A stretch of 64,000 nucleotides of DNA from Enterovirga sp. (GCF_028290205.1 NZ_JAQGKF010000099.1:10496-74495), one strand, 5' to 3'. Positions 40,098 to 48,712 are shown, counted from the stretch's first letter. Numbers and translations: made by a program. The notes: generated from the sequence alone by a model not told the origin.

Positions 40098-40487
40098 ATG
40101 ATGCGTCTGCGTCTCGCCGCGACTCTGCTGGGGCTGGTGGTCCTGTCCGGCTCCGCCCTGGCCCGGGACGCCGTCCCGGCGCTGCGCGAGGGCATGCCCT
40201 ATGCGGCGGCGCGGGGCCGGCTGATCGGCAAGGGCTTCCAGCCGGTCGCCTCCGGCAACCGCGACGAGGCCCGCTGCCCGGCCGGTCGGCAGGACGTCTG
40301 CAACGCCTATCCGGAAACGGTGTCCTGCTCGGGCACCGGCGCGGCTGCCTGCCGCTTCATCTTCTCCGGCAAGCGCGGCGTCACCCTGACCGTGGTGGCG
40401 GATGGCGAGGATGTCGGGCGGCTTAAGGTCGTGGCCACGCGCCGCTCCTCCGAGAAGGACGCCAAGTGGCAGCGGGCAGGCCGCTAG
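40098..40487 (+). CDS. secreted hypothetical protein, 4 Cys
   Basis: Signal peptide ALA-R; YPETVSCSGTG...CRFIF. Confidence 0.75.
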   Translation: MMRLRLAATLLGLVVLSGSALARDAVPALREGMPYAAARGRLIGKGFQPVASGNRDEARCPAGRQDVCNAYPETVSCSGTGAAACRFIFSGKRGVTLTVVADGEDVGRLKVVATRRSSEKDAKWQRAGR

Positions 40488-40532: not shown

Positions 40533-40859
40533 TCAGCGGGCACAGATTCGGGTGCCGGTCGCCTCGCTGACCCAGCAGGCCGGATCCTGGCGGCTCTGCC
40601 GGTGCGGCCCGGGCAGCGCCAGGTCGCGGCCCCCCAGGCGGGCAAAGGCGAAGCCCTGCCCGGGCGCGTCGACCTCCATCCGGTAGGTCGGCCTGCCGGG
40701 CGCCGAGATCCGGAAGCTGCCCTTGCGGTCGGTCACCTGGAAATCGCAGGCGTAGCGGCCCTCGTCGCTGGTTTCGCACTGGGCCGGCTTGGCTTCGGCC
40801 AGCCCGGCCGCGAGCAGCAGCCCCGCCGCGGCGAGCGTGAATGCACTTCGTGTCCTCAT
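40533..40859 (-). CDS. secreted hypothetical protein, 4 Cys
   Basis: ATG after GGAGGAG, 19 nt downstream of the flavoprotein stop; signal peptide AEA-K; C..ACD...ACW...ICAR. Confidence 0.75.
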   Translation of the reverse strand: MRTRSAFTLAAAGLLLAAGLAEAKPAQCETSDEGRYACDFQVTDRKGSFRISAPGRPTYRMEVDAPGQGFAFARLGGRDLALPGPHRQSRQDPACWVSEATGTRICAR

Positions 40860-40878
40860 TGGATCTCCTCCGTCGCGG

Positions 40879-41943
40879 TCAGACCAGTTCAGGCGTGACG
40901 GAGAGGGTGGACCCGAGCGGGCCGAATTCTGCAAGGCCGAGCTGGCGGTAGAAGCCGGCCAGCCGTTCCGCATCCGCCTCGAACCAGCCGTGCAGCCAGG
41001 ATCGGTACTGCGCCTCCGCCGCCTCCGGGGCCGCGCCCTCCTGCAGGATCGCGGCCGCGAAATGGGCCGCCATCATGCCCGACATGATTGCTTTCAGAAC
41101 GCCGTGCGAGGACAGCGGGTCGAGCCGGGCCGCTGCATCGCCGACCAGGAACCAGCCCGGCCCGGCCGGCCGTTCGGCCAGGTGCCAGGTCACGTCGGCC
41201 CCGCGCGAGGGGCCGCTCGGCCGCAGCGCCGCAAAGGCGGCGGGCGTCTCGCGGCCGGGCTCGCCTCCGACCGCCAGACGGACCCAGGCATATCGGTCCG
41301 GGCCGACCCGCGCGGTCCAGAGCCAGCCGTCGGGCAGGCTCTCGAGGGCCGGGGCTTCGTCGCGCGCCGGGCAGGAGCCCTCGGCATGGCCGAAGCGGGC
41401 CAGAAGGCGGGGCGAGCGCGGTGTAAGCGGGCCGGACAGCCTGCGGTCCAGCCAGCGGGCATCGCCGCTGGCGTCCACCAGCATGCGGCAGCGCAGGGCG
41501 CCGGCATCGGTCTCCACGTCCCAGAACCCGTCTGGGCTGCGGTTCGCGCCCGTGACACGGGCCGGCTGCCGGATCTCGGCCCCGAGTTCGGCGGCGCGGG
41601 CGAGCAGAAGGCCGTGCAGGGCGGTGCGCCGCACCTGAAAGCCCCGCCAGGCGCCCCCGGCATCCGACCCGAAGGGCTCGAACCGGGCCGAGCCGTTCCA
41701 GGTGATCCAGACACCCGGATGGCGTGCGCCGACGACCGTGCCCAGCCGCCCAGCGAGGCCGAACTGGCCGAGCAGCGGCTCGATGCCCGGGTGCAGCGAC
41801 TCGCCCGGCCGTTCCGTGGCCGAGCCGTCCCGCTCCACCAGGACGACCCACAGGCCCCGGCTCGCCGCCGTGATGGCGGCCGAGCCGCCGGCGGGGCCGC
41901 CGCCGACGATCAGGAGGTCGGGATGGTCGCGTCGAGGCGCCAA
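40879..41943 (-). CDS. FAD-dependent oxidoreductase, LodB/GoxB / Trp-halogenase superfamily
   Basis: IVGGGPAG, RPGESL, LVDASG, VGDAAARLDPLSSHG. Confidence 0.88.
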   Translation of the reverse strand: MAPRRDHPDLLIVGGGPAGGSAAITAASRGLWVVLVERDGSATERPGESLHPGIEPLLGQFGLAGRLGTVVGARHPGVWITWNGSARFEPFGSDAGGAWRGFQVRRTALHGLLLARAAELGAEIRQPARVTGANRSPDGFWDVETDAGALRCRMLVDASGDARWLDRRLSGPLTPRSPRLLARFGHAEGSCPARDEAPALESLPDGWLWTARVGPDRYAWVRLAVGGEPGRETPAAFAALRPSGPSRGADVTWHLAERPAGPGWFLVGDAAARLDPLSSHGVLKAIMSGMMAAHFAAAILQEGAAPEAAEAQYRSWLHGWFEADAERLAGFYRQLGLAEFGPLGSTLSVTPELV

Positions 41944-44453
41944 GGCTGATCGCCCTGCTTCAGCAGAACCTGGCTGCCGGCCACGAAGGCCAGGACAGGC
42001 TCCCGCATCTCGACCAGCACGCTGGTCATGTCGGTCGGGTGGCGCGATTCCGGCCCGGGCCGGAAGGCCTGGAAGCGGTAACGTCGCTCGCCGGAGAGCC
42101 GGGCGGACGCCGCGGTCTCGGCCGCGGCGAGTTCGGTGTCGCCTTCGGGGATGGCCCGGAACGACAGAATGGCCCAGCCGGCCTTGGCCTTCACGGCATC
42201 CACCACGGCCTGCCGGTCCTGCTCCGTCAGGGTCTCGCCCGCCTTCGGCGGCTCCGGATCACGGAGGCCGAGCGCCCAGTACAGGGCGGCGGTCGCGAGC
42301 ACGCGCGCCTTGGTCTCGGGCAGGTCGACCTTGGCCAGGTGAAGCGCGGTCATGCGCTCGAGATTGCCGAGGTAGTCGACCCGGTTGATGTCGGGATAGA
42401 TCGCCCGCTCCGCCCCGTTCACCGTTTCAACGCGCGGCCCGCGCACGCCGTCCCAGGGCATGAAGCGGTCGCCCTCGGCTGGCACGATGCCGAGTTCCGC
42501 GTCCGTGAGCGGAACCACCGTCGGCCAGGGGTAGTCGAAGCCCGGGCCGCGGCGCAGCGGCGAGAAGGTGCGGGAGCTGTCGGGCGCCACGGCCGGCCAG
42601 TAGCTGCCCAGCGCCGCGCAGAGCTTGACGTCCTCGACGAAGGGGGTGCCGAGGCCGAAATTCTGCATAAACGGCTGCAGCGTGTCCGGCTCGGTGTAGC
42701 GCTGGCCGAGGCTCGTGTCCCAGCCCGGATCGAACACGCCGGGCGACGCGTCCGGCAGGCCGGAATAACGGTTGGTGTTGGCGGGTCGGGTGGCGAATTC
42801 CGGCATGGCGGGCGCGTCGGAGCCGGTTCGGGCGGCGGGTTCGGCCCGGGCCCTGTGCTGCGGGACGATGGCCGTGATGGTGGTGTCGTTGATGCTGAAG
42901 CCGAGTGCCAGCGTGACGTTGCCGGCCATGCGGCGTTCGGCGAGCGAGGTCGGCGGCACCGCCCAGAGCGCGCCGCGCAGCGCCTTCGGGACCTCGGTCT
43001 GCCACCAGATGCTGAGGTCGCGCTGGCTCACATAGGGAAAGAAGTCGGGCGGCGCGACCATGCAATAGGCCGGCAGCCGGGTCCGCACGAGGCCGTCGAG
43101 TTGCGGCACCTGCACCCGGATCGCGCCGTCGCCGGCGAAGTCGATGAAGTGCTGCGCCCGGTAGCCACCCCGGGCAATGATGTCCATCAGCTCCGGGTGC
43201 CGGTTCAGATTGTCGATCTGCCCGTTCGGTCCGACCCGGTGGCGAATCGAAACGTATTCCGGCGCCGGCCGGTCCGTGGTCGGGCCGAGCCCGTGCATGT
43301 AGGACGGCGCCGTCTCGGCCCCGCCGGGCAGGATCTGGGCCGTGGAAAAGTACATCACGCCCGGCCGTTTGGCGAAGTCCGGCGGCACTTCGAAGGTGAG
43401 CCAATCGTTCTTGTAGCGGGCCCGCACGGCGAGGGGGCTCGGCTTCGGTTCCAGCACGCCGGAGCCCCAATCGGGCCGGCGCGAGAAGCTGGCGATGGCC
43501 TCGTCCCGGATCACGAACGGAAACTGGTTCAGATCCTCGCCGCGCCAGCTCGCCTCGAAGCCCTCGACCTCCAGGTAGCGGTGAAAGCGGCGCAGCTTCT
43601 CGTTCACGAGCGAGCGCGTCAGCCCGACCCGCAGGTCGAGGCCGGCCAGGCATTCGCGGCCGTCGAACAGCTTGTGCACCGGCACCCAGAAGCCGAGCTG
43701 GTCGTCGCCCTTCAGGTAGTCGCGCGGCAGGGTCTCGGCCTCGTTCCCGGCCAACCGGACGGCCAGATAGGCGGCGAAGCGCTGCGGCATCGGCCGGAAG
43801 TTGAACGGCCGTGCCGGATCGACCGGATCAAAGGCGCGCGCCCGGGCATCGTAGCGGGGCTCGATCGTGCCCATCCGGGCGAGGCCGGTGCGGGCAAAGG
43901 CCAGATCGGCGTGCCGGCCCTGCGGCGATTCCGGACCGCGCCGGTATTCCAGGCTGAACACCGCGACGGCCAGCGGGTGCTCGCCGACGCGCTGGCGGAT
44001 CGCCTCGAGACTGGGCGGCGCGACGCCGTAGCAGTAGTTCTCGACCGCCTCGATCTCGGCCAGGGTCGGAAAGGCGCCGAGCGGCCGCCCGGACCCGTCC
44101 GCCACGACATCGGGCGAGGCGAGCACGTGGTAGAGGAGGCTCGCGGCCGGACTGCCCGGCTCGATGGCGCGCCGGCCCTCCGGGTGAAAGTCGCCGAGGC
44201 CGGGAAGGGTGCGGTCGATATGCCCGAGAGGTTTTGCGAATTCGGCGCGCAGGTCCCGGGCCGCGATGTCGAGCTCGCCCCCGGTCGCCGCCTGGAGAAG
44301 GCGGCGCCAGCCATGCGGGGCGAGGCGCCGGCAGGCGGCCGCGACCCCGTCCACGAGCCGGCGGGGGGGCGCCGCCGCGAGCGCCGCGTCCGGCAGGATT
44401 GCGGCCGCCAATCCAAGCCCGGACCCCTCCAGCATCCCCCGTCGCGTCAGCAT
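41910..44453 (-). CDS. Tat-exported 847-aa protein of unknown function (candidate divergent CTQ quinoprotein)
   Basis: MLTRRGML...ALA Tat signal; strong codon bias; overlaps the flavoprotein start; PFVEDVKLC...SYWPAVAPD segment. Confidence 0.85.
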   Translation of the reverse strand: MLTRRGMLEGSGLGLAAAILPDAALAAAPPRRLVDGVAAACRRLAPHGWRRLLQAATGGELDIAARDLRAEFAKPLGHIDRTLPGLGDFHPEGRRAIEPGSPAASLLYHVLASPDVVADGSGRPLGAFPTLAEIEAVENYCYGVAPPSLEAIRQRVGEHPLAVAVFSLEYRRGPESPQGRHADLAFARTGLARMGTIEPRYDARARAFDPVDPARPFNFRPMPQRFAAYLAVRLAGNEAETLPRDYLKGDDQLGFWVPVHKLFDGRECLAGLDLRVGLTRSLVNEKLRRFHRYLEVEGFEASWRGEDLNQFPFVIRDEAIASFSRRPDWGSGVLEPKPSPLAVRARYKNDWLTFEVPPDFAKRPGVMYFSTAQILPGGAETAPSYMHGLGPTTDRPAPEYVSIRHRVGPNGQIDNLNRHPELMDIIARGGYRAQHFIDFAGDGAIRVQVPQLDGLVRTRLPAYCMVAPPDFFPYVSQRDLSIWWQTEVPKALRGALWAVPPTSLAERRMAGNVTLALGFSINDTTITAIVPQHRARAEPAARTGSDAPAMPEFATRPANTNRYSGLPDASPGVFDPGWDTSLGQRYTEPDTLQPFMQNFGLGTPFVEDVKLCAALGSYWPAVAPDSSRTFSPLRRGPGFDYPWPTVVPLTDAELGIVPAEGDRFMPWDGVRGPRVETVNGAERAIYPDINRVDYLGNLERMTALHLAKVDLPETKARVLATAALYWALGLRDPEPPKAGETLTEQDRQAVVDAVKAKAGWAILSFRAIPEGDTELAAAETAASARLSGERRYRFQAFRPGPESRHPTDMTSVLVEMREPVLAFVAGSQVLLKQGDQPWRLDATIPTS

Positions 44454-44594: not shown

Positions 44595-45719
44595 ATGCAG
44601 CGTCACGCCCCCGCTCCGGGCAGCCTCGTAGCGGCTCCGGTCGAGCCCCTTCCGCCCGCCCCCCCGCGACTGAGCGGGCGCGCCGCCGCCACCCTGTCGG
44701 TGGAGGACGTCCGCTGCCGCTTCGGCACCAAGACCGTGCTGCGGGGCGTCTCCTTCGAGGCGCCGCCGGCTGCGGTGACGTGCCTTCTCGGCCCTTCGGG
44801 GTGTGGCAAGACCACGCTGCTGCGCATCCTGGCCGGGATCGAGCGGCCGAGCGCCGGCCGCGTCATGCTGGACGGCGAGGAGGTGGCCGGTCCGGCCGTG
44901 TTCGTGCCGGCCGAGAGCCGCCGCGTCGGGCTCATGTTCCAGGATTATGCCCTGTTCCCGCACCTGACGGTGCTGGACAACGTCTTGTTCGGGCTGCGCC
45001 ACCTGCCGCGCGGCGAGGCCCGGCCGGTGGCCGAGGCGGCGCTCGACCGGGTCGGGCTCGCCGGGCTCGCCGGACGGCGGCCCAGCGAATTGTCGGGCGG
45101 TGAGCAGCAGCGGGCCGCCCTGGCCCGCGCGATAGCGCCGGCGCCGCGCGCCCTGCTCTTGGACGAGCCCTTCTCGAACCTGGATCGCGGCCTGCGCGAC
45201 GACCTGCGGGATTCGACCGCGGCGCTGCTGCGGGACAGCCGCATCACCGCGCTGGTCGTCACGCACGATCCCGATGAGGCCATGCAGATGGCCGATCACA
45301 TCGTGCTGCTCTCGGCCGGCGAGGTGCTGGCCGCCGGCCGGGCCGAAGACCTTTATCGCCGGCCCGCCTCCCTGGCCGTGGCCCGCGCGCTGGCGGATGT
45401 GAACGAGGTCCCGGGCCGGATGGCGGGGGGCTGGATCGAAACCGGGCTCGGCCGCTTCCCGGGCCTCGGCCACCACCCCGACGGGGCGGCCGCCATCCTG
45501 GCCATCCGGCCCGAAGGCATCCGCATCGGCCCTGCGGGATCGGGGCGCCCGGGCCGCATCGCGAGCCGCGTGTTCCGTGGCGCCGCCAGTTCCGTCCGGG
45601 TGGAGATCGAGGGCCTCGACGCGCCGATCCGGGCCGTCGTCAACCGGTCTGCCGCGGCCCCCGGCGACCTCGTCTCGGTGGAGGTCGAGCCCGACAGCGC
45701 CTTTGTCTTCCTGGCGTGA
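44595..45719 (+). CDS. fbpC: Fe3+ ABC transporter ATP-binding protein (start uncertain, 44497-44595)
   Basis: GPSGCGKTT, LMFQDYALFPHL, LSGGEQQR, LDEPFSNLD; TOBE-like tail. Confidence 0.88.
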   Translation: MQRHAPAPGSLVAAPVEPLPPAPPRLSGRAAATLSVEDVRCRFGTKTVLRGVSFEAPPAAVTCLLGPSGCGKTTLLRILAGIERPSAGRVMLDGEEVAGPAVFVPAESRRVGLMFQDYALFPHLTVLDNVLFGLRHLPRGEARPVAEAALDRVGLAGLAGRRPSELSGGEQQRAALARAIAPAPRALLLDEPFSNLDRGLRDDLRDSTAALLRDSRITALVVTHDPDEAMQMADHIVLLSAGEVLAAGRAEDLYRRPASLAVARALADVNEVPGRMAGGWIETGLGRFPGLGHHPDGAAAILAIRPEGIRIGPAGSGRPGRIASRVFRGAASSVRVEIEGLDAPIRAVVNRSAAAPGDLVSVEVEPDSAFVFLA

Positions 45720-45948
45720 GGGGCATTGCGGGCCTTGGCAGTCTGTCCAAAAGCGGCGCGGCTGGATCGACCATGGCACCGTTCCTGCCGCGTTGAACGG
45801 CTCGCCGGTCCGAAAAAGCCGCCAAGAGCGTAAATCGTCGCGGGCCTTGGCGGACTTACTCTAATTCTAAACTACGGAAATGGCTTGCTGTTCGGGCCAA
45901 AGCTTGCCATTCGGTCTGGCTATCTTGGTCGGATCCGGAGGATCAACT

Positions 45949-46971
45949 GTGGCTGTCCGCGGCGTTTGCCTGGTTGTGGGGTTTGCTTCGCTCTTGGCTG
46001 GAGCGATCCCGGCCGTGGCCCAGGAGGTCAATCTCTACACGACGCGCGAACCCGGCCTGATCAAGCCGTTGCTCGACGCCTTCACCCGGTCGAGCGGCAT
46101 CAAGGTCAACACGGTTCTGGTCGACAAGGGACTTGCTGAGCGGGTCGCAGCGGAAGGTGAGCGCTCCCCGGCCGACGTGCTGATGACCGTGGATGTCGGC
46201 AATCTGATGGAACTGGTCGACAAGGGGCTGGCCCAGCCGGTCGCCTCGCCGGCGCTGGACGCCGCCATTCCGGCCCATCTGCGGGCGGCCGACGGCCGCT
46301 GGTACGCGCTCTCGCTGCGGGCCCGGGTGGCCTATGTCGATGCCGGCCTCGGTGATGTGCAGGCGCTGACCTACGAGGAGCTCGCCGACCCGAAATGGAA
46401 GGGCAAGATCTGCATCCGGTCGGGTCAACACCCCTACAACACCGCCCTGATCGGCGCCTACTTGGCCCGCCACGGCGAAGAGAAGACGGAGGCGTGGCTG
46501 CGCGGGCTCAAGGCCAATCTCGCCCGCAGGGCCGGAGGCGGCGACCGCGAGGTGGCGCGCGACATCAAGGCCGATCTCTGCGATCTGGGGCTGGCGAATT
46601 CCTATTACGTCGGCCTGATGCGGGGCGGGAAGGGCGGGGCCGAGCAGAAGAGCTGGGCGGACGCCATCAAGGTGGTGCTGCCGACCTTCGCGGGCGGCGG
46701 CACGCATGTGAACGTGTCCGGGGCCGTGGTCGCCCGCAACGCGCCCAACAAGGATGCCGCCGTGAAGCTGCTGGAATTCCTCGTGACCGAGGAGGCCCAG
46801 GCCATCTACGCACAGAGCAATTACGAGTACCCGGTCCGGGCCGGGGCCAAGGCGGACCCGATCATCGCGGCGCTTGGACCCCTGAATCCGGACACCACGC
46901 CGCTTCCCGAGATCGCCAAGAACCGCAAGCTCGCCAGCATGCTGGTCGACAAGGTCGGGTTCGACAACTGA
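45949..46971 (+). CDS. fbpA: Fe3+ ABC transporter substrate-binding protein (FbpA/FutA/AfuA)
   Basis: GTG after GGAGG; NLYTTRE, ERSPADVLMTVD, RSGQHPYN, GGDR, NSYY (Fe-ligand Tyr pair). Confidence 0.9.
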   Translation: MAVRGVCLVVGFASLLAGAIPAVAQEVNLYTTREPGLIKPLLDAFTRSSGIKVNTVLVDKGLAERVAAEGERSPADVLMTVDVGNLMELVDKGLAQPVASPALDAAIPAHLRAADGRWYALSLRARVAYVDAGLGDVQALTYEELADPKWKGKICIRSGQHPYNTALIGAYLARHGEEKTEAWLRGLKANLARRAGGGDREVARDIKADLCDLGLANSYYVGLMRGGKGGAEQKSWADAIKVVLPTFAGGGTHVNVSGAVVARNAPNKDAAVKLLEFLVTEEAQAIYAQSNYEYPVRAGAKADPIIAALGPLNPDTTPLPEIAKNRKLASMLVDKVGFDN

Positions 46972-47026
46972 GCCCGACCAGCCGGCGGGAGCCGAGCGCT
47001 CCCGCCTGATCCGCAAGGCCCTTCCG

Positions 47027-48712
47027 ATGAGTTCCGTCGCCCTCGAAGCCGGCTCCGCCTGGGACGCCCGCGCGGCCGCGCCGCGCCGCCCGGCTCGCGG
47101 CCTGGGTCATGCCGTGTTTCTGTCGGCCGCGATTCTGGTCGCCGTGGCGCTGATCGCCCCCGTCGCCTCCCTGGCCGTCAGCGCCCTCCAGGGCTCGGCC
47201 GGGTTGTGGCCCCACCTCGTCGCCTATGTGCTGCCGCAGGCGCTGCGCGACACCGTGCTTCTGCTTCTCGGGGTGGGCCTCCTGGTTCTGGTGGTCGGGG
47301 TCGGCACCGCCTGGCTCGTGGCTGCGCACGATTTTCCCGGCCGCCGGCTGGTCGAATGGATGCTGGTCCTGCCGCTCGCGGTGCCGACCTACATCGTGGC
47401 CTATGCCTATCTCGACCTCCTGCATCCGGTCGGTCCGGTGCAGACGGGCCTTCGCCACCTGTTCGGGATCGCGAGCCCGCGCGACCTGCCGTTTCCGGAG
47501 GTCCGCTCCCTGCCGGTCTGCGCCCTGCTGATCGGCTTCGTGCTGTATCCCTACGTCTACCTGCCGGTCCGGGCCGTGTTCCTGCTCCAGGGTGCGGAGG
47601 TGCTGGAAGCCGCCCGCACCCTCGGGGCCGGCTCCGCCCGCACCTTCTGGCGGGTCGCCCTGCCGCTGGCCCGGCCGGGCATCGCGGTCGGAGCGAGCCT
47701 CGCCCTGCTGGAAGCCCTGAACGACATCGGGGCGTCGGAATTCCTGGGCGTGCGCACGCTCACGGTCTCGATCTATGCCACCTGGGTGAACCGGTCGGAC
47801 CTGCCCGGCGCCGCGCAGATCGCCTTGCTGCTGCTGGTGGTGGTGCTGGCGCTGCTGGCCGCGGAGGCCTGGGGCCGTCGGCAGGGCCGCTACGTGGCCG
47901 GCCGGAGGACACCGCAGAGGCGGCCGCTCTCCGGCAGCCGGGCCGGGCTCGCGCTTCTTGCCTGCGCGGCCCCGATCACGGTCGGCTTCGTGGCGCCGGC
48001 CGGCTACCTGCTGGTCGAAGCCTCCAAGCGGGTCGCCTTTGCGGGCGTGTCGGCCGGTCTCGCCCGCGAGACGCTGAACACGGTGCTGCTCTCCGCCGGC
48101 GCCACCGTCCTGACGGTCGGGCTCGGGCTCGTCCTCGCATCGGGTGCGCGGCTCTATGCCCGGCGCGTGCCGTCGCTGTGGCTGCGGGCGGCCGGATTCG
48201 GCTACGCCCTTCCGGGCACCATCCTGGCCGTGGCGCTGCTCGGCCCGCTCGCGGGCTTCGACCGGATGCTGGCCGCCGTCACGCGCGACCTGTTCGGGGT
48301 GACGCTCGGGCTGCTGGCCGGCGGCACCGCGGTGGCGCTGATCTACGCCTATACGGTGCGGTTCCTGGCGATCTCGATCGGCGCCGCCGAAGCCGGGCTG
48401 GCCAAGCTGCCGGCCTCGCAGGACGAGGCAAGCCGCGTGCTCGGGCAGGGTACGCTCGGCACGTTCCGGCTGATCCACGTGCCCTTCGCCTGGACGGCGG
48501 TGGCGAGCGGCGCGCTGCTGGTCTTTGTGGATTGCATGAAAGAGCTGCCCGCGACGCTGCTGCTGCGGCCGCTCAACGTCGAGACCCTGGCCACGCACCT
48601 GTATGGCGAAGCGGCGCGGGGCACCTACGAGGACGGCGCCGTCGCGGCGCTGATCATCGTGCTGATCGGCCTGTTGCCGCTGACGCTGCTGTCGCGCCTC
48701 GGCCCGCGCTGA
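47027..48712 (+). CDS. fbpB: Fe3+ ABC transporter permease
   Basis: Two EAA-loop halves; LYPYVYL, MKELPATLLLRP.N.ETLAT. Confidence 0.92.
   Translation: MSSVALEAGSAWDARAAAPRRPARGLGHAVFLSAAILVAVALIAPVASLAVSALQGSAGLWPHLVAYVLPQALRDTVLLLLGVGLLVLVVGVGTAWLVAAHDFPGRRLVEWMLVLPLAVPTYIVAYAYLDLLHPVGPVQTGLRHLFGIASPRDLPFPEVRSLPVCALLIGFVLYPYVYLPVRAVFLLQGAEVLEAARTLGAGSARTFWRVALPLARPGIAVGASLALLEALNDIGASEFLGVRTLTVSIYATWVNRSDLPGAAQIALLLLVVVLALLAAEAWGRRQGRYVAGRRTPQRRPLSGSRAGLALLACAAPITVGFVAPAGYLLVEASKRVAFAGVSAGLARETLNTVLLSAGATVLTVGLGLVLASGARLYARRVPSLWLRAAGFGYALPGTILAVALLGPLAGFDRMLAAVTRDLFGVTLGLLAGGTAVALIYAYTVRFLAISIGAAEAGLAKLPASQDEASRVLGQGTLGTFRLIHVPFAWTAVASGALLVFVDCMKELPATLLLRPLNVETLATHLYGEAARGTYEDGAVAALIIVLIGLLPLTLLSRLGPR

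What the first reader, a model, noticed from the sequence alone, without database searches (positions are those of the whole stretch)
40533..44453. Candidate new quinoprotein system: Tat-exported orphan with a CTQ-like motif plus a LodB-like flavoprotein
Seen: an 847-aa Tat substrate with no domain I can name, whose 3' end overlaps a 354-aa flavoprotein (GGGPAG, GESL, GDAA..LDPLSSHG; GWLWTARV rather than the halogenase WxWxIP), followed by a small secreted protein. Residues encoded at ~42576-42650 read P-F-V-E-D-V-K-L-C-A-A-L-G-S-Y-W-P-A-V-A-P-D. Known: LodA/GoxA oxidases carry P-W-Q-A-D-F-x-x-C and a downstream W-W-P-x-x-x-P, where the Cys and Trp form cysteine tryptophylquinone with the Asp four residues before the Cys essential; their adjacent LodB/GoxB flavoprotein matures the cofactor. 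A short Cys-Trp spacing (6) exists in the CTQ of the quinohemoprotein amine dehydrogenase gamma subunit. Inference: a highly divergent, Tat-exported (folded, cofactor-loaded) CTQ enzyme with Cys-Trp spacing 7, possibly an H2O2-producing amino-acid or amine oxidase of an undescribed family. The motif match is by eye and overall similarity to LodA is not apparent.
Basis: partly seen in the sequence, partly recalled or inferred. Interest (0 to 1): 0.9.

Follow-up and report, generated by a model that had tools for sequence, protein, structure and literature searches.

The report
Unnamed quinoprotein-like enzyme with flavoprotein maturase
Two overlapping genes encode a large exported protein of an unnamed, widespread family and a flavoprotein of the type that builds the cysteine tryptophylquinone (CTQ) cofactor; together they probably form a third, structurally new class of CTQ enzymes, predicted here but not shown chemically.

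Summary
An 847-aa protein with a twin-arginine (Tat) signal is followed, with a 34-nt overlap, by a 354-aa flavoprotein. The motif PFVEDVKLCAALGSYWPAVAPD is present.

The large protein matches no Pfam, NCBIfam or PDB sequence. A confident AlphaFold model (pLDDT 89.6) has no Foldseek match in the PDB, LodA/GoxA included. The family is large: 1,082 clusters at 50% identity, in at least ten phyla.

Asp608, Cys612 and Trp619 are essentially invariant (135 of 136 representatives found without a word index). Their register, P-Ar-x2-D-x3-C ... Ar-W-P-x3-P, matches the CTQ sites of LodA and GoxA. The D-x3-C-x6-W spacing resembles D33/C37/W43 of the quinohemoprotein amine dehydrogenase small subunit.

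A flavoprotein gene lies directly downstream in 72 of 72 loci with room for it, and no other neighbour is conserved. Its best curated match is always QhpG, with GoxB second or third. It lacks the halogenase lysine and the WxWxIP motif. The genome has no other CTQ substrate.

Most likely (about 0.6) this is a new CTQ-type quinoprotein matured in the cytoplasm and then exported by Tat. Membership of the LodA/GoxA family is not supported; there is only weak local similarity. The small secreted protein downstream is not a conserved part. No chemistry was tested.

The parts
41910..44453 (-). 847-aa precursor of the putative quinoprotein, from an unnamed family
   Evidence: ORF. No Pfam, NCBIfam or PDB sequence match. 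More than 667 close homologues and 1,082 representative clusters. AlphaFold model pLDDT 89.6, pTM 0.90, with no PDB fold match.
44370..44453 (-). Twin-arginine (Tat) signal peptide, residues 1 to about 28 (RR at 44439-44444)
   Evidence: MLTRRGMLEGSGLGLAAAIL...ALAAAP read directly. MTTRRxFL is conserved in proteobacterial, actinobacterial, Gemmatimonadota, planctomycete and other homologues. NCBI names several homologues 'twin-arginine translocation signal domain-containing protein'. No dedicated predictor was run.
42579..42644 (-). CTQ-like site: P604-F605-x-E607-D608-x-K610-L611-C612 ... Y618-W619-P620-x3-P624-D625. Proposed Cys612-Trp619 cysteine tryptophylquinone with Asp608.
   Evidence: D608, C612, W619, P620, P624 and D625 are invariant in 80 loci and in 118 sequences. 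They hold in 134-136 of the 136 representatives found without a word index that cover the site. The register is the same as LodA, GoxA and LodA-like sites and as Asp33/Cys37/Trp42-Trp43 of QhpC (PMC7876137).
43029..43148 (-). Local similarity to the LodA_N signature (FIDFAGDGAIRV...PAYCMVAPPDFFP against WYDDTSDGPVTA...PAWVVVAPPNYAP)
   Evidence: hhalign P=0.003-0.008 and probability 5-10%. 0 of 60 column shuffles of a diverse LodA profile reached the score, z about 6. 1 of 30 shuffles of a narrow profile did reach it. Suggestive only.
40879..41943 (-). 354-aa FAD-dependent monooxygenase, putative cofactor maturase (GxGxxG at 41887-41904; R74-H75 at 41719-41724; GWLWTA at 41311-41328; GDAAxxLDP at 41116-41142)
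   Evidence: Best NCBIfam matches are QhpG 133 bits, GoxB 94 and LodB 71, all below their cut-offs. QhpG is also top in 9 of 9 distant orthologues. There is no halogenase Lys or WxWxIP. No signal peptide. It is the only QhpG-like gene in the genome.
41910..41943 (-). 34-nt overlap between the two genes (translational coupling)
   Evidence: Read directly. Similar overlaps of 31-46 nt occur in Streptomyces, Gemmatimonadales and Ancylobacter loci.
40533..40859 (-). Small Sec-signal protein gene 19 nt downstream. It is a local passenger, not part of the conserved module.
   Evidence: Ribosome-binding site and ATG read. The only homologue among 80 loci is in L018 and lies about 2 kb beyond the flavoprotein gene there. 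No third conserved neighbour family was found.

Best explanation
The two genes form a self-contained module for a protein-derived quinone enzyme of an undescribed family.

Proposed mechanism:
- The 847-aa precursor folds in the cytoplasm.
- The co-translated FAD monooxygenase has no signal peptide. It hydroxylates Trp619, and the indole becomes cross-linked to Cys612, giving cysteine tryptophylquinone (CTQ). Asp608, four residues before the Cys as in every known CTQ enzyme, assists biogenesis and/or catalysis.
- The finished, folded enzyme is then exported by the Tat pathway to the periplasm.
- There it most likely oxidises a primary amine or amino acid. O2 is the probable electron acceptor, because no haem or cupredoxin partner is conserved next to it.

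Shown here: the gene pair and its overlap; the Tat motif; strict co-occurrence; invariance and register of the Asp/Cys/Trp motif; the maturase-type and non-halogenase character of the flavoprotein; the absence of any other CTQ substrate in the genome.

Inferred: that the flavoprotein acts on the large protein; that the product is CTQ at Cys612-Trp619; the order of maturation and export; the oxidase chemistry.
For: 1. Linkage. A flavoprotein orthologue (E 1e-32 to 1e-138) lies immediately downstream on the same strand in 72 of 72 loci that have room. These span Alpha-, Beta- and Gammaproteobacteria, Streptomyces, Gemmatimonadota, Planctomycetota, Verrucomicrobiota, Chloroflexota, Acidobacteriota and Cyanobacteria. 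It is also present beside a distant member without a signal peptide. No other neighbour is conserved in more than 7 of 80 loci.

2. Site. Cys612 is the only invariant Cys. D608, C612, W619, P620, P624 and D625 are invariant and hold in 134-136 of the 136 representatives found without a word index that cover the site.

3. Register. P(-8), aromatic(-7) and D(-4) before the Cys, and aromatic(-1), P(+1), P(+5) and N/D(+6) around the Trp, match LodA-like proteins, LodA and GoxA. QhpC has D33-x3-C37-x5-W43 with a W42-W43 pair (PMC7876137).

4. Flavoprotein. QhpG is the top NCBIfam model in 10 of 10 members, at 93-133 bits over model positions 1 to about 323. GoxB is second or third. A genuine LodB-like control scores 127 bits on QhpG. 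In 62 orthologues plus the window's own protein, the halogenase Lys position is His in 60 and never Lys, and WxWxIP is replaced by GWxW followed by T/S/I and an invariant Ala, close to GWWY(S/A)A of LodB-like proteins.

5. No competing substrate. The genome is 96% complete and has no LodA_N, LodA_C or QH-AmDH_gamma match. It has only this one QhpG-like gene.

6. Compartment logic. A Tat signal on the large protein and none on the flavoprotein fits maturation before export. Tat signals also occur in group II LodA-like proteins (PMC4417212).
Against: - No chemistry was done; the cofactor is inferred.
- The large protein has no significant sequence or fold similarity to LodA/GoxA or any solved structure, so the argument rests on short motifs plus gene linkage.
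- The motif pattern was defined after the fact, and a strict LodA-subgroup matrix does not pick the site.
- The CTQ-region profile alignment alone is marginal: 5 of 100 shuffles reach it.
- The Cys612-Trp619 distance in the model could not be measured.
- Among PDB sequences the flavoprotein is closer to true halogenases (8ZOP, 184 bits with the family profile) than to P. putida QhpG (65 bits). A genuine LodB-like control shows the same ranking.
- All curated maturase cut-offs are missed.
- Many family members lack a Tat signal, so export is not intrinsic to the family.
Confidence: 0.6

Rival explanations
1. The flavoprotein does modify the large protein, but the product is not CTQ. It could be a hydroxy-Trp or Trp-quinone without the thioether, a cross-link to another residue, or a redox-inactive structural cross-link.
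For: The same linkage and invariance data apply. QhpG on its own only dihydroxylates Trp, and the thioether forms later (PMC7876137). Other invariant residues lie close by: E607 and R628 throughout, and K610 in the close homologues.
Against: The only invariant Cys lies 7 residues from an invariant Trp, with Asp at -4, exactly as in all three known CTQ enzymes. Every characterised member of this maturase group makes CTQ (PMC11951088).
Confidence: 0.15
2. The pair is a two-subunit periplasmic flavoenzyme. The signal-less flavoprotein is the catalytic subunit and rides out on the large protein's Tat signal ('hitchhiking'), and there is no protein-derived cofactor.
For: One Tat signal serves two tightly coupled genes. 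Tat hitchhiking is an established mechanism (general knowledge). The pairing is strict.
Against: Many family members, including the filamentous cyanobacterial ones, have no Tat signal yet keep the pair. The flavoprotein's nearest curated families are maturases that act on a protein Trp. This reading gives no reason for the invariant D-x3-C...W site matching CTQ sites.
Confidence: 0.1
3. The two proteins are independent enzymes of one small-molecule pathway. The flavoprotein hydroxylates an aromatic metabolite and the large protein acts on it, with no post-translational modification.
For: The halogenase/monooxygenase fold often acts on small aromatics. The large protein has no recognisable domain.
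Against: The two proteins sit in different compartments in most lineages (Tat against no signal). No transporter, regulator or further pathway gene is conserved nearby. The genomic contexts are unrelated: urease, xanthine dehydrogenase, iron transporter. Overlapping, coupled genes fit a stoichiometric partnership.
Confidence: 0.08
4. The large protein is a true but extremely diverged member of the LodA/GoxA superfamily, sharing ancestry and an active-site core. It concerns ancestry and is compatible with the best explanation.
For: Two motif matches occur in the same order. The first is the LodA_N signature DG-x-V-x-A...PAW-x-V-x-PP-(N/D)-(Y/F)-x-P, with hhalign score 36.2, P=0.003 and 0 of 60 shuffles reaching it. 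The second is the CTQ Asp/Cys and Trp blocks in exact register. Cys-Trp spacing is already highly variable inside the LodA family: 13, 16, 20, 34, 35 and 65.
Against: No Pfam LodA_N or LodA_C hit even at E up to 10. HH-suite probability is only 5-10%. 1 of 30 shuffles of a narrower profile equals the score. Foldseek with a pLDDT-89.6 model lists no LodA/GoxA chain among its 50 best hits, and its best E-value is 0.64.
Confidence: 0.3

Closest known systems
LodA/LodB and GoxA/GoxB: CTQ-dependent L-lysine epsilon-oxidase and glycine oxidase with their flavoprotein maturases (Pfam LodA_N PF17990 and LodA_C PF18417; PDB 3WEU, 2YMW, 6BYW)
   Same: - Two-gene architecture: a large protein followed by a flavoprotein of about 350 aa.
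- The flavoprotein has LodB/GoxB size and lacks the halogenase Lys and IP.
- The P-Ar-x2-D-x3-C and Ar-W-P-x3-P blocks are in the same register.
- Some LodA-like groups also carry Tat signals (PMC4417212).
- There is a weak local match to the LodA_N signature.
   Different: - No match to LodA_N or LodA_C models and no fold match to LodA/GoxA structures.
- Cys-Trp spacing is 7, against 13-65.
- The flavoprotein scores higher on QhpG than on GoxB or LodB, and far below their cut-offs (94 and 71 bits against 400).
Quinohemoprotein amine dehydrogenase (QHNDH): gamma subunit QhpC with CTQ, and flavoprotein QhpG (PDB 1JMX, 7CTQ)
   Same: - Short-range CTQ geometry: D33-x3-C37-x5-W43 with an aromatic-Trp pair, against D608-x3-C612-x6-W619 with Y618-W619.
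- QhpG is the best-scoring curated model for the flavoprotein.
- Maturation happens in the cytoplasm before export.
   Different: - The substrate is an 847-aa protein rather than a 9-kDa peptide.
- There is no radical-SAM QhpD, QhpE protease, ABC exporter or dihaem subunit nearby, and no QH-AmDH_gamma in the genome.
- The flavoprotein lacks the C-terminal ~100 residues of QhpG; the match covers model positions 1-323 of 423.
- Its score of 133 bits is below the cut-off of 240.
Variant-B flavin-dependent halogenases (CmlS 3I3L, CndH 3E1T, Bmp2 5BVA, 8ZOP)
   Same: The FAD-binding fold and the GxGxxG, GESL and GDAAxxxDP motifs are shared. These are the best PDB sequence matches for the flavoprotein.
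   Different: The catalytic Lys is replaced by His, and WxWxIP is replaced by GWxWTA, throughout the family. A genuine LodB-like maturase shows the same PDB ranking, so this ranking reflects which structures have been solved.

Membership tests
LodA/GoxA family CTQ-dependent oxidases | Match to the Pfam LodA_N (PF17990) and LodA_C (PF18417) models | tested here: not met
   No hit at E<=1 in hmmscan. No hit in the whole genome at E<=1 for LodA_N or E<=10 for LodA_C. The NCBIfam scan gave nothing.
LodA/GoxA family CTQ-dependent oxidases | Fold shared with the LodA (3WEU/2YMW) and GoxA (6BYW) structures | tested here: not met
   Foldseek of model m53be83665be6 (pLDDT 89.6, pTM 0.90) against the PDB gave a best E of 0.64, with no LodA/GoxA chain among the 50 hits listed. 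Domain-wise structural alignment was not possible.
LodA/GoxA family CTQ-dependent oxidases | Conserved Cys and Trp that form CTQ, with Asp four residues before the Cys | tested here: met
   D608-x3-C612 and Y618-W619-P620 are invariant. The register equals LodA D512/C516/W581, PlGoxA D678/C682/W697 and the LodA-like proteins. Only the sequence pattern was tested, not the chemistry.
LodA/GoxA family CTQ-dependent oxidases | Adjacent lodB/goxB-type flavoprotein gene | tested here: met
   72 of 72 loci with room downstream.
LodA/GoxA family CTQ-dependent oxidases | CTQ cofactor and H2O2-producing amino-acid oxidase activity | not testable with these tools
   Needs expression, quinone staining, mass spectrometry and activity assays.
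QhpG / LodB / GoxB CTQ maturases (NCBIfam NF049967, NF038171, NF038174) | Score above the curated equivalog cut-off | tested here: not met
   QhpG 133 against 240, GoxB 94 against 400, LodB 71 against 400. The same holds in 9 orthologues. A genuine LodB-like control also misses all three cut-offs (184, 135 and 127 bits).
QhpG / LodB / GoxB CTQ maturases (NCBIfam NF049967, NF038171, NF038174) | These are the nearest curated families; halogenase fold without halogenase catalytic residues | tested here: met
   QhpG ranks first and GoxB second or third in 10 of 10 members. His replaces the Lys, and GWxWTA replaces WxWxIP.
QHNDH system (qhpABCDEFG) | Small gamma subunit (QH-AmDH_gamma), radical-SAM QhpD and a dihaem alpha subunit | tested here: not met
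   No QH-AmDH_gamma in the genome (best E 0.84). No conserved neighbour other than the flavoprotein.
Flavin-dependent halogenases | Catalytic Lys and the WxWxIP motif | tested here: not met
   The position aligned with the Lys of 8ZOP, CmlS and CndH is His in 60 of 63 and never Lys. The IP pair is replaced: the Ile position is Thr in 57 of 63 (otherwise Ser or Ile) and the Pro position is Ala in 63 of 63.
Tat-exported proteins | N-terminal S/T-R-R-x-F-L-K-like motif followed by a hydrophobic region | tested here: met
   T-R-R-G-M-L-E followed by GSGLGLAAAIL, conserved as TRRxFL in homologues. Judged by eye; no predictor was available and export was not tested.

The most novel reading that the evidence does not exclude
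This is the founding example of a third structural class of CTQ enzymes. The scaffold of about 800 aa has no relative among solved structures. It carries a short-range Cys-x6-Trp quinone like the tiny QHNDH gamma subunit, but is matured by a single LodB-sized flavoprotein without radical-SAM help. The family has about 1,000 sequence clusters across at least ten bacterial phyla, all annotated as hypothetical. It may be the evolutionary bridge between the LodA/GoxA and QHNDH cofactor sites.
Probability: 0.45. Interest if true: 0.85.

Novelty: new variant of a known kind. Interest (0 to 1): 0.72.

Why it matters
A March 2025 review lists CTQ only in QHNDH, LodA and GoxA (PMC11951088). A further scaffold carrying CTQ, with about 1,000 sequence clusters, would have several consequences.

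- It would greatly enlarge the known set of protein-derived quinone enzymes.
- It would offer a simple two-gene system for studying how a flavoprotein builds a quinone inside a large folded protein.
- It would open a reservoir of amine or amino-acid oxidases, of unknown substrate, for biosensing and biocatalysis.
- It would give a function to a widespread 'hypothetical' gene pair in soil bacteria, Streptomyces and cyanobacteria.

The prediction can be tested directly by co-expression, quinone staining and peptide mass spectrometry.

Tried and rejected
- **Direct family or structure assignment of the 847-aa protein.** Pfam, NCBIfam, PDB phmmer and a PDB profile search all came back empty.
- **First AlphaFold run (31 sequences).** It left residues 501-605 unmodelled and its Foldseek search was uninformative. 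It was replaced by a 118-sequence run.
- **Halogenase reading of the flavoprotein.** Rejected: there is no catalytic Lys and no WxWxIP.
- **PDB ranking as evidence against a maturase.** Halogenases outrank QhpG, but a genuine LodB-like control behaves the same way, so this is not informative.
- **The small secreted protein as a third component.** Rejected.
- **Objective position matrix of the LodA CTQ blocks scanned over the genome.** Built from one narrow subgroup, it was too specific and did not rank the site.
- **hhalign restricted to the CTQ region.** It aligned only the YWPAVAPD/FWPARVPN block, with p about 0.05 against shuffles.
- **RNA evidence.** Only soil metagenome DNA runs hold the sequence.
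- **Cys-Trp distance.** Model coordinates are not exposed, so it could not be measured.
- **Earlier scan notes.** Sequence look-ups found no look-alike windows.

Full report
**1. Observation**

The window, a soil-metagenome genome with about 71% G+C, carries three genes on the minus strand.
- An 847-aa ORF lies at 41910-44453.
- A 354-aa ORF lies at 40879-41943. Its TTG start is 34 nt inside the end of the first gene.
- A small gene starts 19 nt further on, with a GGAGGAG ribosome-binding site and an ATG at 40859.

The large protein begins MLTRRGMLEGSGLGLAAAIL..., a twin-arginine motif followed by a hydrophobic stretch. The flavoprotein has GGGPAG, PGESLHPG, DGWLWTARV and GDAAARLDPLSSHG, and no signal peptide. 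Residues 604-625 read PFVEDVKLCAALGSYWPAVAPD and are encoded at 42579-42644.

**2. The large protein is an unnamed but very large family**

It has no Pfam or NCBIfam hit. It has no PDB sequence match, either as a single sequence or as a profile.

A word-indexed search found more than 667 homologues at 50% identity or more, all 'hypothetical' or 'Tat signal domain-containing'. An exhaustive HMMER search of 1.84 billion cluster representatives found 1,082 clusters at E<=1e-3 and 549 at E<=1e-30. A scan of one genome per species found 261 loci. They come from Alpha-, Beta- and Gammaproteobacteria, Streptomyces, Gemmatimonadota, Planctomycetota, Verrucomicrobiota, Chloroflexota, Acidobacteriota and Cyanobacteria.

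A first AlphaFold model from 31 sequences was poor around the motif. A second, from 118 sequences, is confident: mean pLDDT 89.6 and pTM 0.90, with only the signal peptide and loop 540-560 below 50. Foldseek against 350,542 PDB chains gave no match better than E=0.64, and no LodA or GoxA chain among the hits listed. By this test the fold is unlike any solved structure.

**3. The gene pair is the unit**

I extracted ORFs from 80 loci and searched them with the window's flavoprotein. In every one of the 72 loci with sequence downstream of the large gene, an orthologue (E 1e-32 to 1e-138) lies directly downstream on the same strand, usually overlapping. The eight loci without it are cut by contig ends. 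Four of the 72 have the flavoprotein split between frames.

A distant member without a signal peptide (P0376) also has the flavoprotein. Clustering of all flanking ORFs showed no other family present in more than 7 of 80 loci. The surrounding genes differ completely between loci, and in the window the neighbours are polA and an iron ABC transporter.

The small secreted protein has a single homologue among the 80 loci, in L018, and it is not adjacent to the pair there. It is therefore a local passenger.

**4. The site**

In alignments of 31, 81 and 118 sequences, D608, K610, C612, W619, P620, P624, D625 and R628 are invariant. Cys612 is the only invariant cysteine. The locus scan used the peptide CAA[LYF]G[AS]YWP as one of its patterns, which could bias this result. 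I therefore repeated the test on the 150 best representatives from the search that uses no word index. Of the 136 that cover the site:
- 135 of 136 have Asp at position 608.
- All 135 with a residue at position 612 have Cys.
- 135 of 136 have Trp at position 619.
- K610 is less constant, at 111 of 136.

Comparison with genuine LodA-family proteins that I fetched, and with LodA and GoxA in the PDB, shows the same register:
- LodA-like: L-P-W-Q-G-D-T-A-F-C ... S-F-W-P-A-R-V-P-N
- This protein: T-P-F-V-E-D-V-K-L-C ... S-Y-W-P-A-V-A-P-D

The shared positions are P(-8), aromatic(-7) and D(-4) before the Cys, and aromatic(-1), P(+1), A(+2), P(+5) and N/D(+6) around the Trp.

The known CTQ residues sit at these positions. 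They are LodA D512/C516/W581 (PMC4417212), PlGoxA D678/C682/W697 (numbering, with Asp678 from PMC7876137), and Asp33/Cys37/Trp42-Trp43 in the QHNDH gamma subunit (PMC7876137). [quoted passage not shown]

Cys-Trp spacing is already variable within the LodA family, at 13, 16, 20, 34, 35 and 65 residues. It is 6 in QhpC and 7 here.

The composite pattern occurs once in 4.7 million residues of this genome's six-frame ORFs. This is a post-hoc pattern, and a strict matrix from one LodA subgroup did not recover it.

**5. The flavoprotein**

- **Curated families.** NCBIfam ranks QhpG first (133 bits, model positions 2-324 of 423), then GoxB (94) and LodB (71). All are below their equivalog cut-offs. 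Nine orthologues from other phyla give the same order, with QhpG at 93-128 bits.
- **Control.** A bona fide LodB-like protein next to a LodA-family gene scores GoxB 184, LodB 135 and QhpG 127, also below the cut-offs. So this flavoprotein is about as close to QhpG as a real LodA-family maturase is.
- **Size.** At 330-370 aa it is LodB/GoxB-like. It lacks the C-terminal ~100 residues of QhpG.
- **PDB ranking.** The best PDB matches are variant-B halogenases (8ZOP, CndH, CmlS, Bmp2), ahead of P. putida QhpG. The LodB-like control shows the same ranking. The QhpG paper itself notes that CmlS is the closest structure to QhpG and GoxB.
- **Halogenase residues.** In 62 orthologues plus the window's own protein (63 sequences), the position aligned with the halogenase catalytic Lys is His in 60 and never Lys. 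WxWxIP is GWxW followed by T/S/I and an invariant Ala, close to GWWY(S/A)A of LodB-like proteins. This makes it a monooxygenase of the CTQ-maturase type, not a halogenase.
- **Other substrates.** The genome is 96% complete. It has no other QhpG-like gene and no LodA_N, LodA_C or QH-AmDH_gamma match. The neighbour is the only plausible protein substrate.

**6. Is it a LodA homologue?**

Profile-profile comparison with LodA-like alignments finds one local match. Residues 436-475 (FIDFAGDGAIRV...PAYCMVAPPDFFP) align to the LodA_N signature (WYDDTSDGPVTA...PAWVVVAPPNYAP).
- With narrow profiles the P-value is 0.003-0.008 and the probability 5-10%, and 1 of 30 column shuffles reached the score.
- With a more diverse LodA profile the score rose to 36.2, and 0 of 60 shuffles reached it (null 19.7 +/- 2.6).

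The CTQ region alone aligns only the Trp block, at p about 0.05. The two matches are in the same order in both families.

Together with the negative Pfam and Foldseek results, this leaves distant common ancestry possible, at about 0.3. It does not justify membership of the family.

**7. Mechanism proposed**

The precursor folds in the cytoplasm. The co-translated flavoprotein hydroxylates Trp619, and Cys612 cross-links to the indole to give CTQ, with Asp608 assisting. Tat then exports the finished enzyme.

The absence of any conserved haem or copper partner suggests O2 as the electron acceptor, making it an oxidase like LodA and GoxA. The substrate cannot be inferred from gene context. Confidence in the CTQ reading is about 0.6.

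The rivals are:
- a different Trp-derived modification (0.15);
- a two-subunit flavoenzyme exported by Tat hitchhiking (0.10);
- an unrelated small-molecule pathway (0.08).

Family members without a signal peptide, such as those of the filamentous cyanobacteria, keep the gene pair. This argues against hitchhiking as the reason for the pairing.

**8. Novelty**

The accessible literature lists CTQ only in QHNDH, LodA and GoxA (PMC11951088). I found no paper that describes this family, though the library searched is incomplete.

Earlier notes from this scan (e1-4078313, e1-5095307) describe similar 'sister families' of LodA in other genomes. They agree with my reading, but I could not confirm that they concern the same family.

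I rate this a new variant of a known kind: a quinoprotein plus flavoprotein maturase, on a new scaffold.

**Limits**

- There is no chemistry.
- Model coordinates could not be read.

Noticed in passing
L089-L097 (Aerosakkonema, Argonema, Scytonema, Calothrix, Tolypothrix); representatives P0248-P0390: Filamentous cyanobacterial and many distant family members start at the position of residue 33 (M-x-L-I-x-E-V-K...C-x-R-L-A) and have no Tat or other signal peptide. The cyanobacterial loci and the distant member P0376 still keep the flavoprotein neighbour; the other distant members were not checked. The family therefore has exported and cytoplasmic branches.
   Followed up: partly
P0291, P0298 (Peptidase_S8 N-terminal fusion); P0381 (Ferritin-like PF12902 fusion); P0263 (PG_binding_1 fusion); L002 4314-5057 and 9572-11053: Some family members are fused to a subtilase, a ferritin-like domain or a peptidoglycan-binding domain. 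The Gemmatimonadales locus is flanked by two Peptidase_S8 genes. This recalls the QhpE subtilase of QHNDH and the iron-protein fusions of LodA-like proteins, but it may be coincidence.
   Followed up: no
L047, L068, L070, L087: In four loci the flavoprotein gene is split between two frames, which could be a frameshift, a pseudogene or an assembly error. Kaistia terrae (L036, L037) and one uncultured proteobacterium (L068, L069) carry two copies of the module.
   Followed up: no
window 40533-40859 (-) and 40098-40487 (+): Two small Cys-containing secreted proteins converge just downstream of the module. The first is probably co-transcribed with it (19-nt gap, good ribosome-binding site). Its only homologue among the 80 loci is in L018 (uncultured Enterovirga sp.), where it is not adjacent to the pair.
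   Followed up: partly
L112-L121, L015-L017: Within genuine LodA/GoxA-family proteins the Cys-Trp spacing of the CTQ site ranges over 13, 16, 20, 34 and 35 residues, and is 65 in LodA. Two members (L120, L121) do not match the simple [WFY]W[PA]xxxP pattern after the Cys.
   Followed up: partly
window 44640-48712 (+): An Fe(III)-type ABC transporter (ATPase, periplasmic binding protein, permease) is transcribed divergently from the module. It is not conserved next to the module elsewhere.
   Followed up: no
window 42960-43020 (residues about 538-560 of the 847-aa protein): This protein and its closest relative carry an extra insertion of about 12 residues (…APAMPEFATRPA…) in the one internal loop that AlphaFold leaves at low confidence. 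The loop is variable across the family.
   Followed up: no
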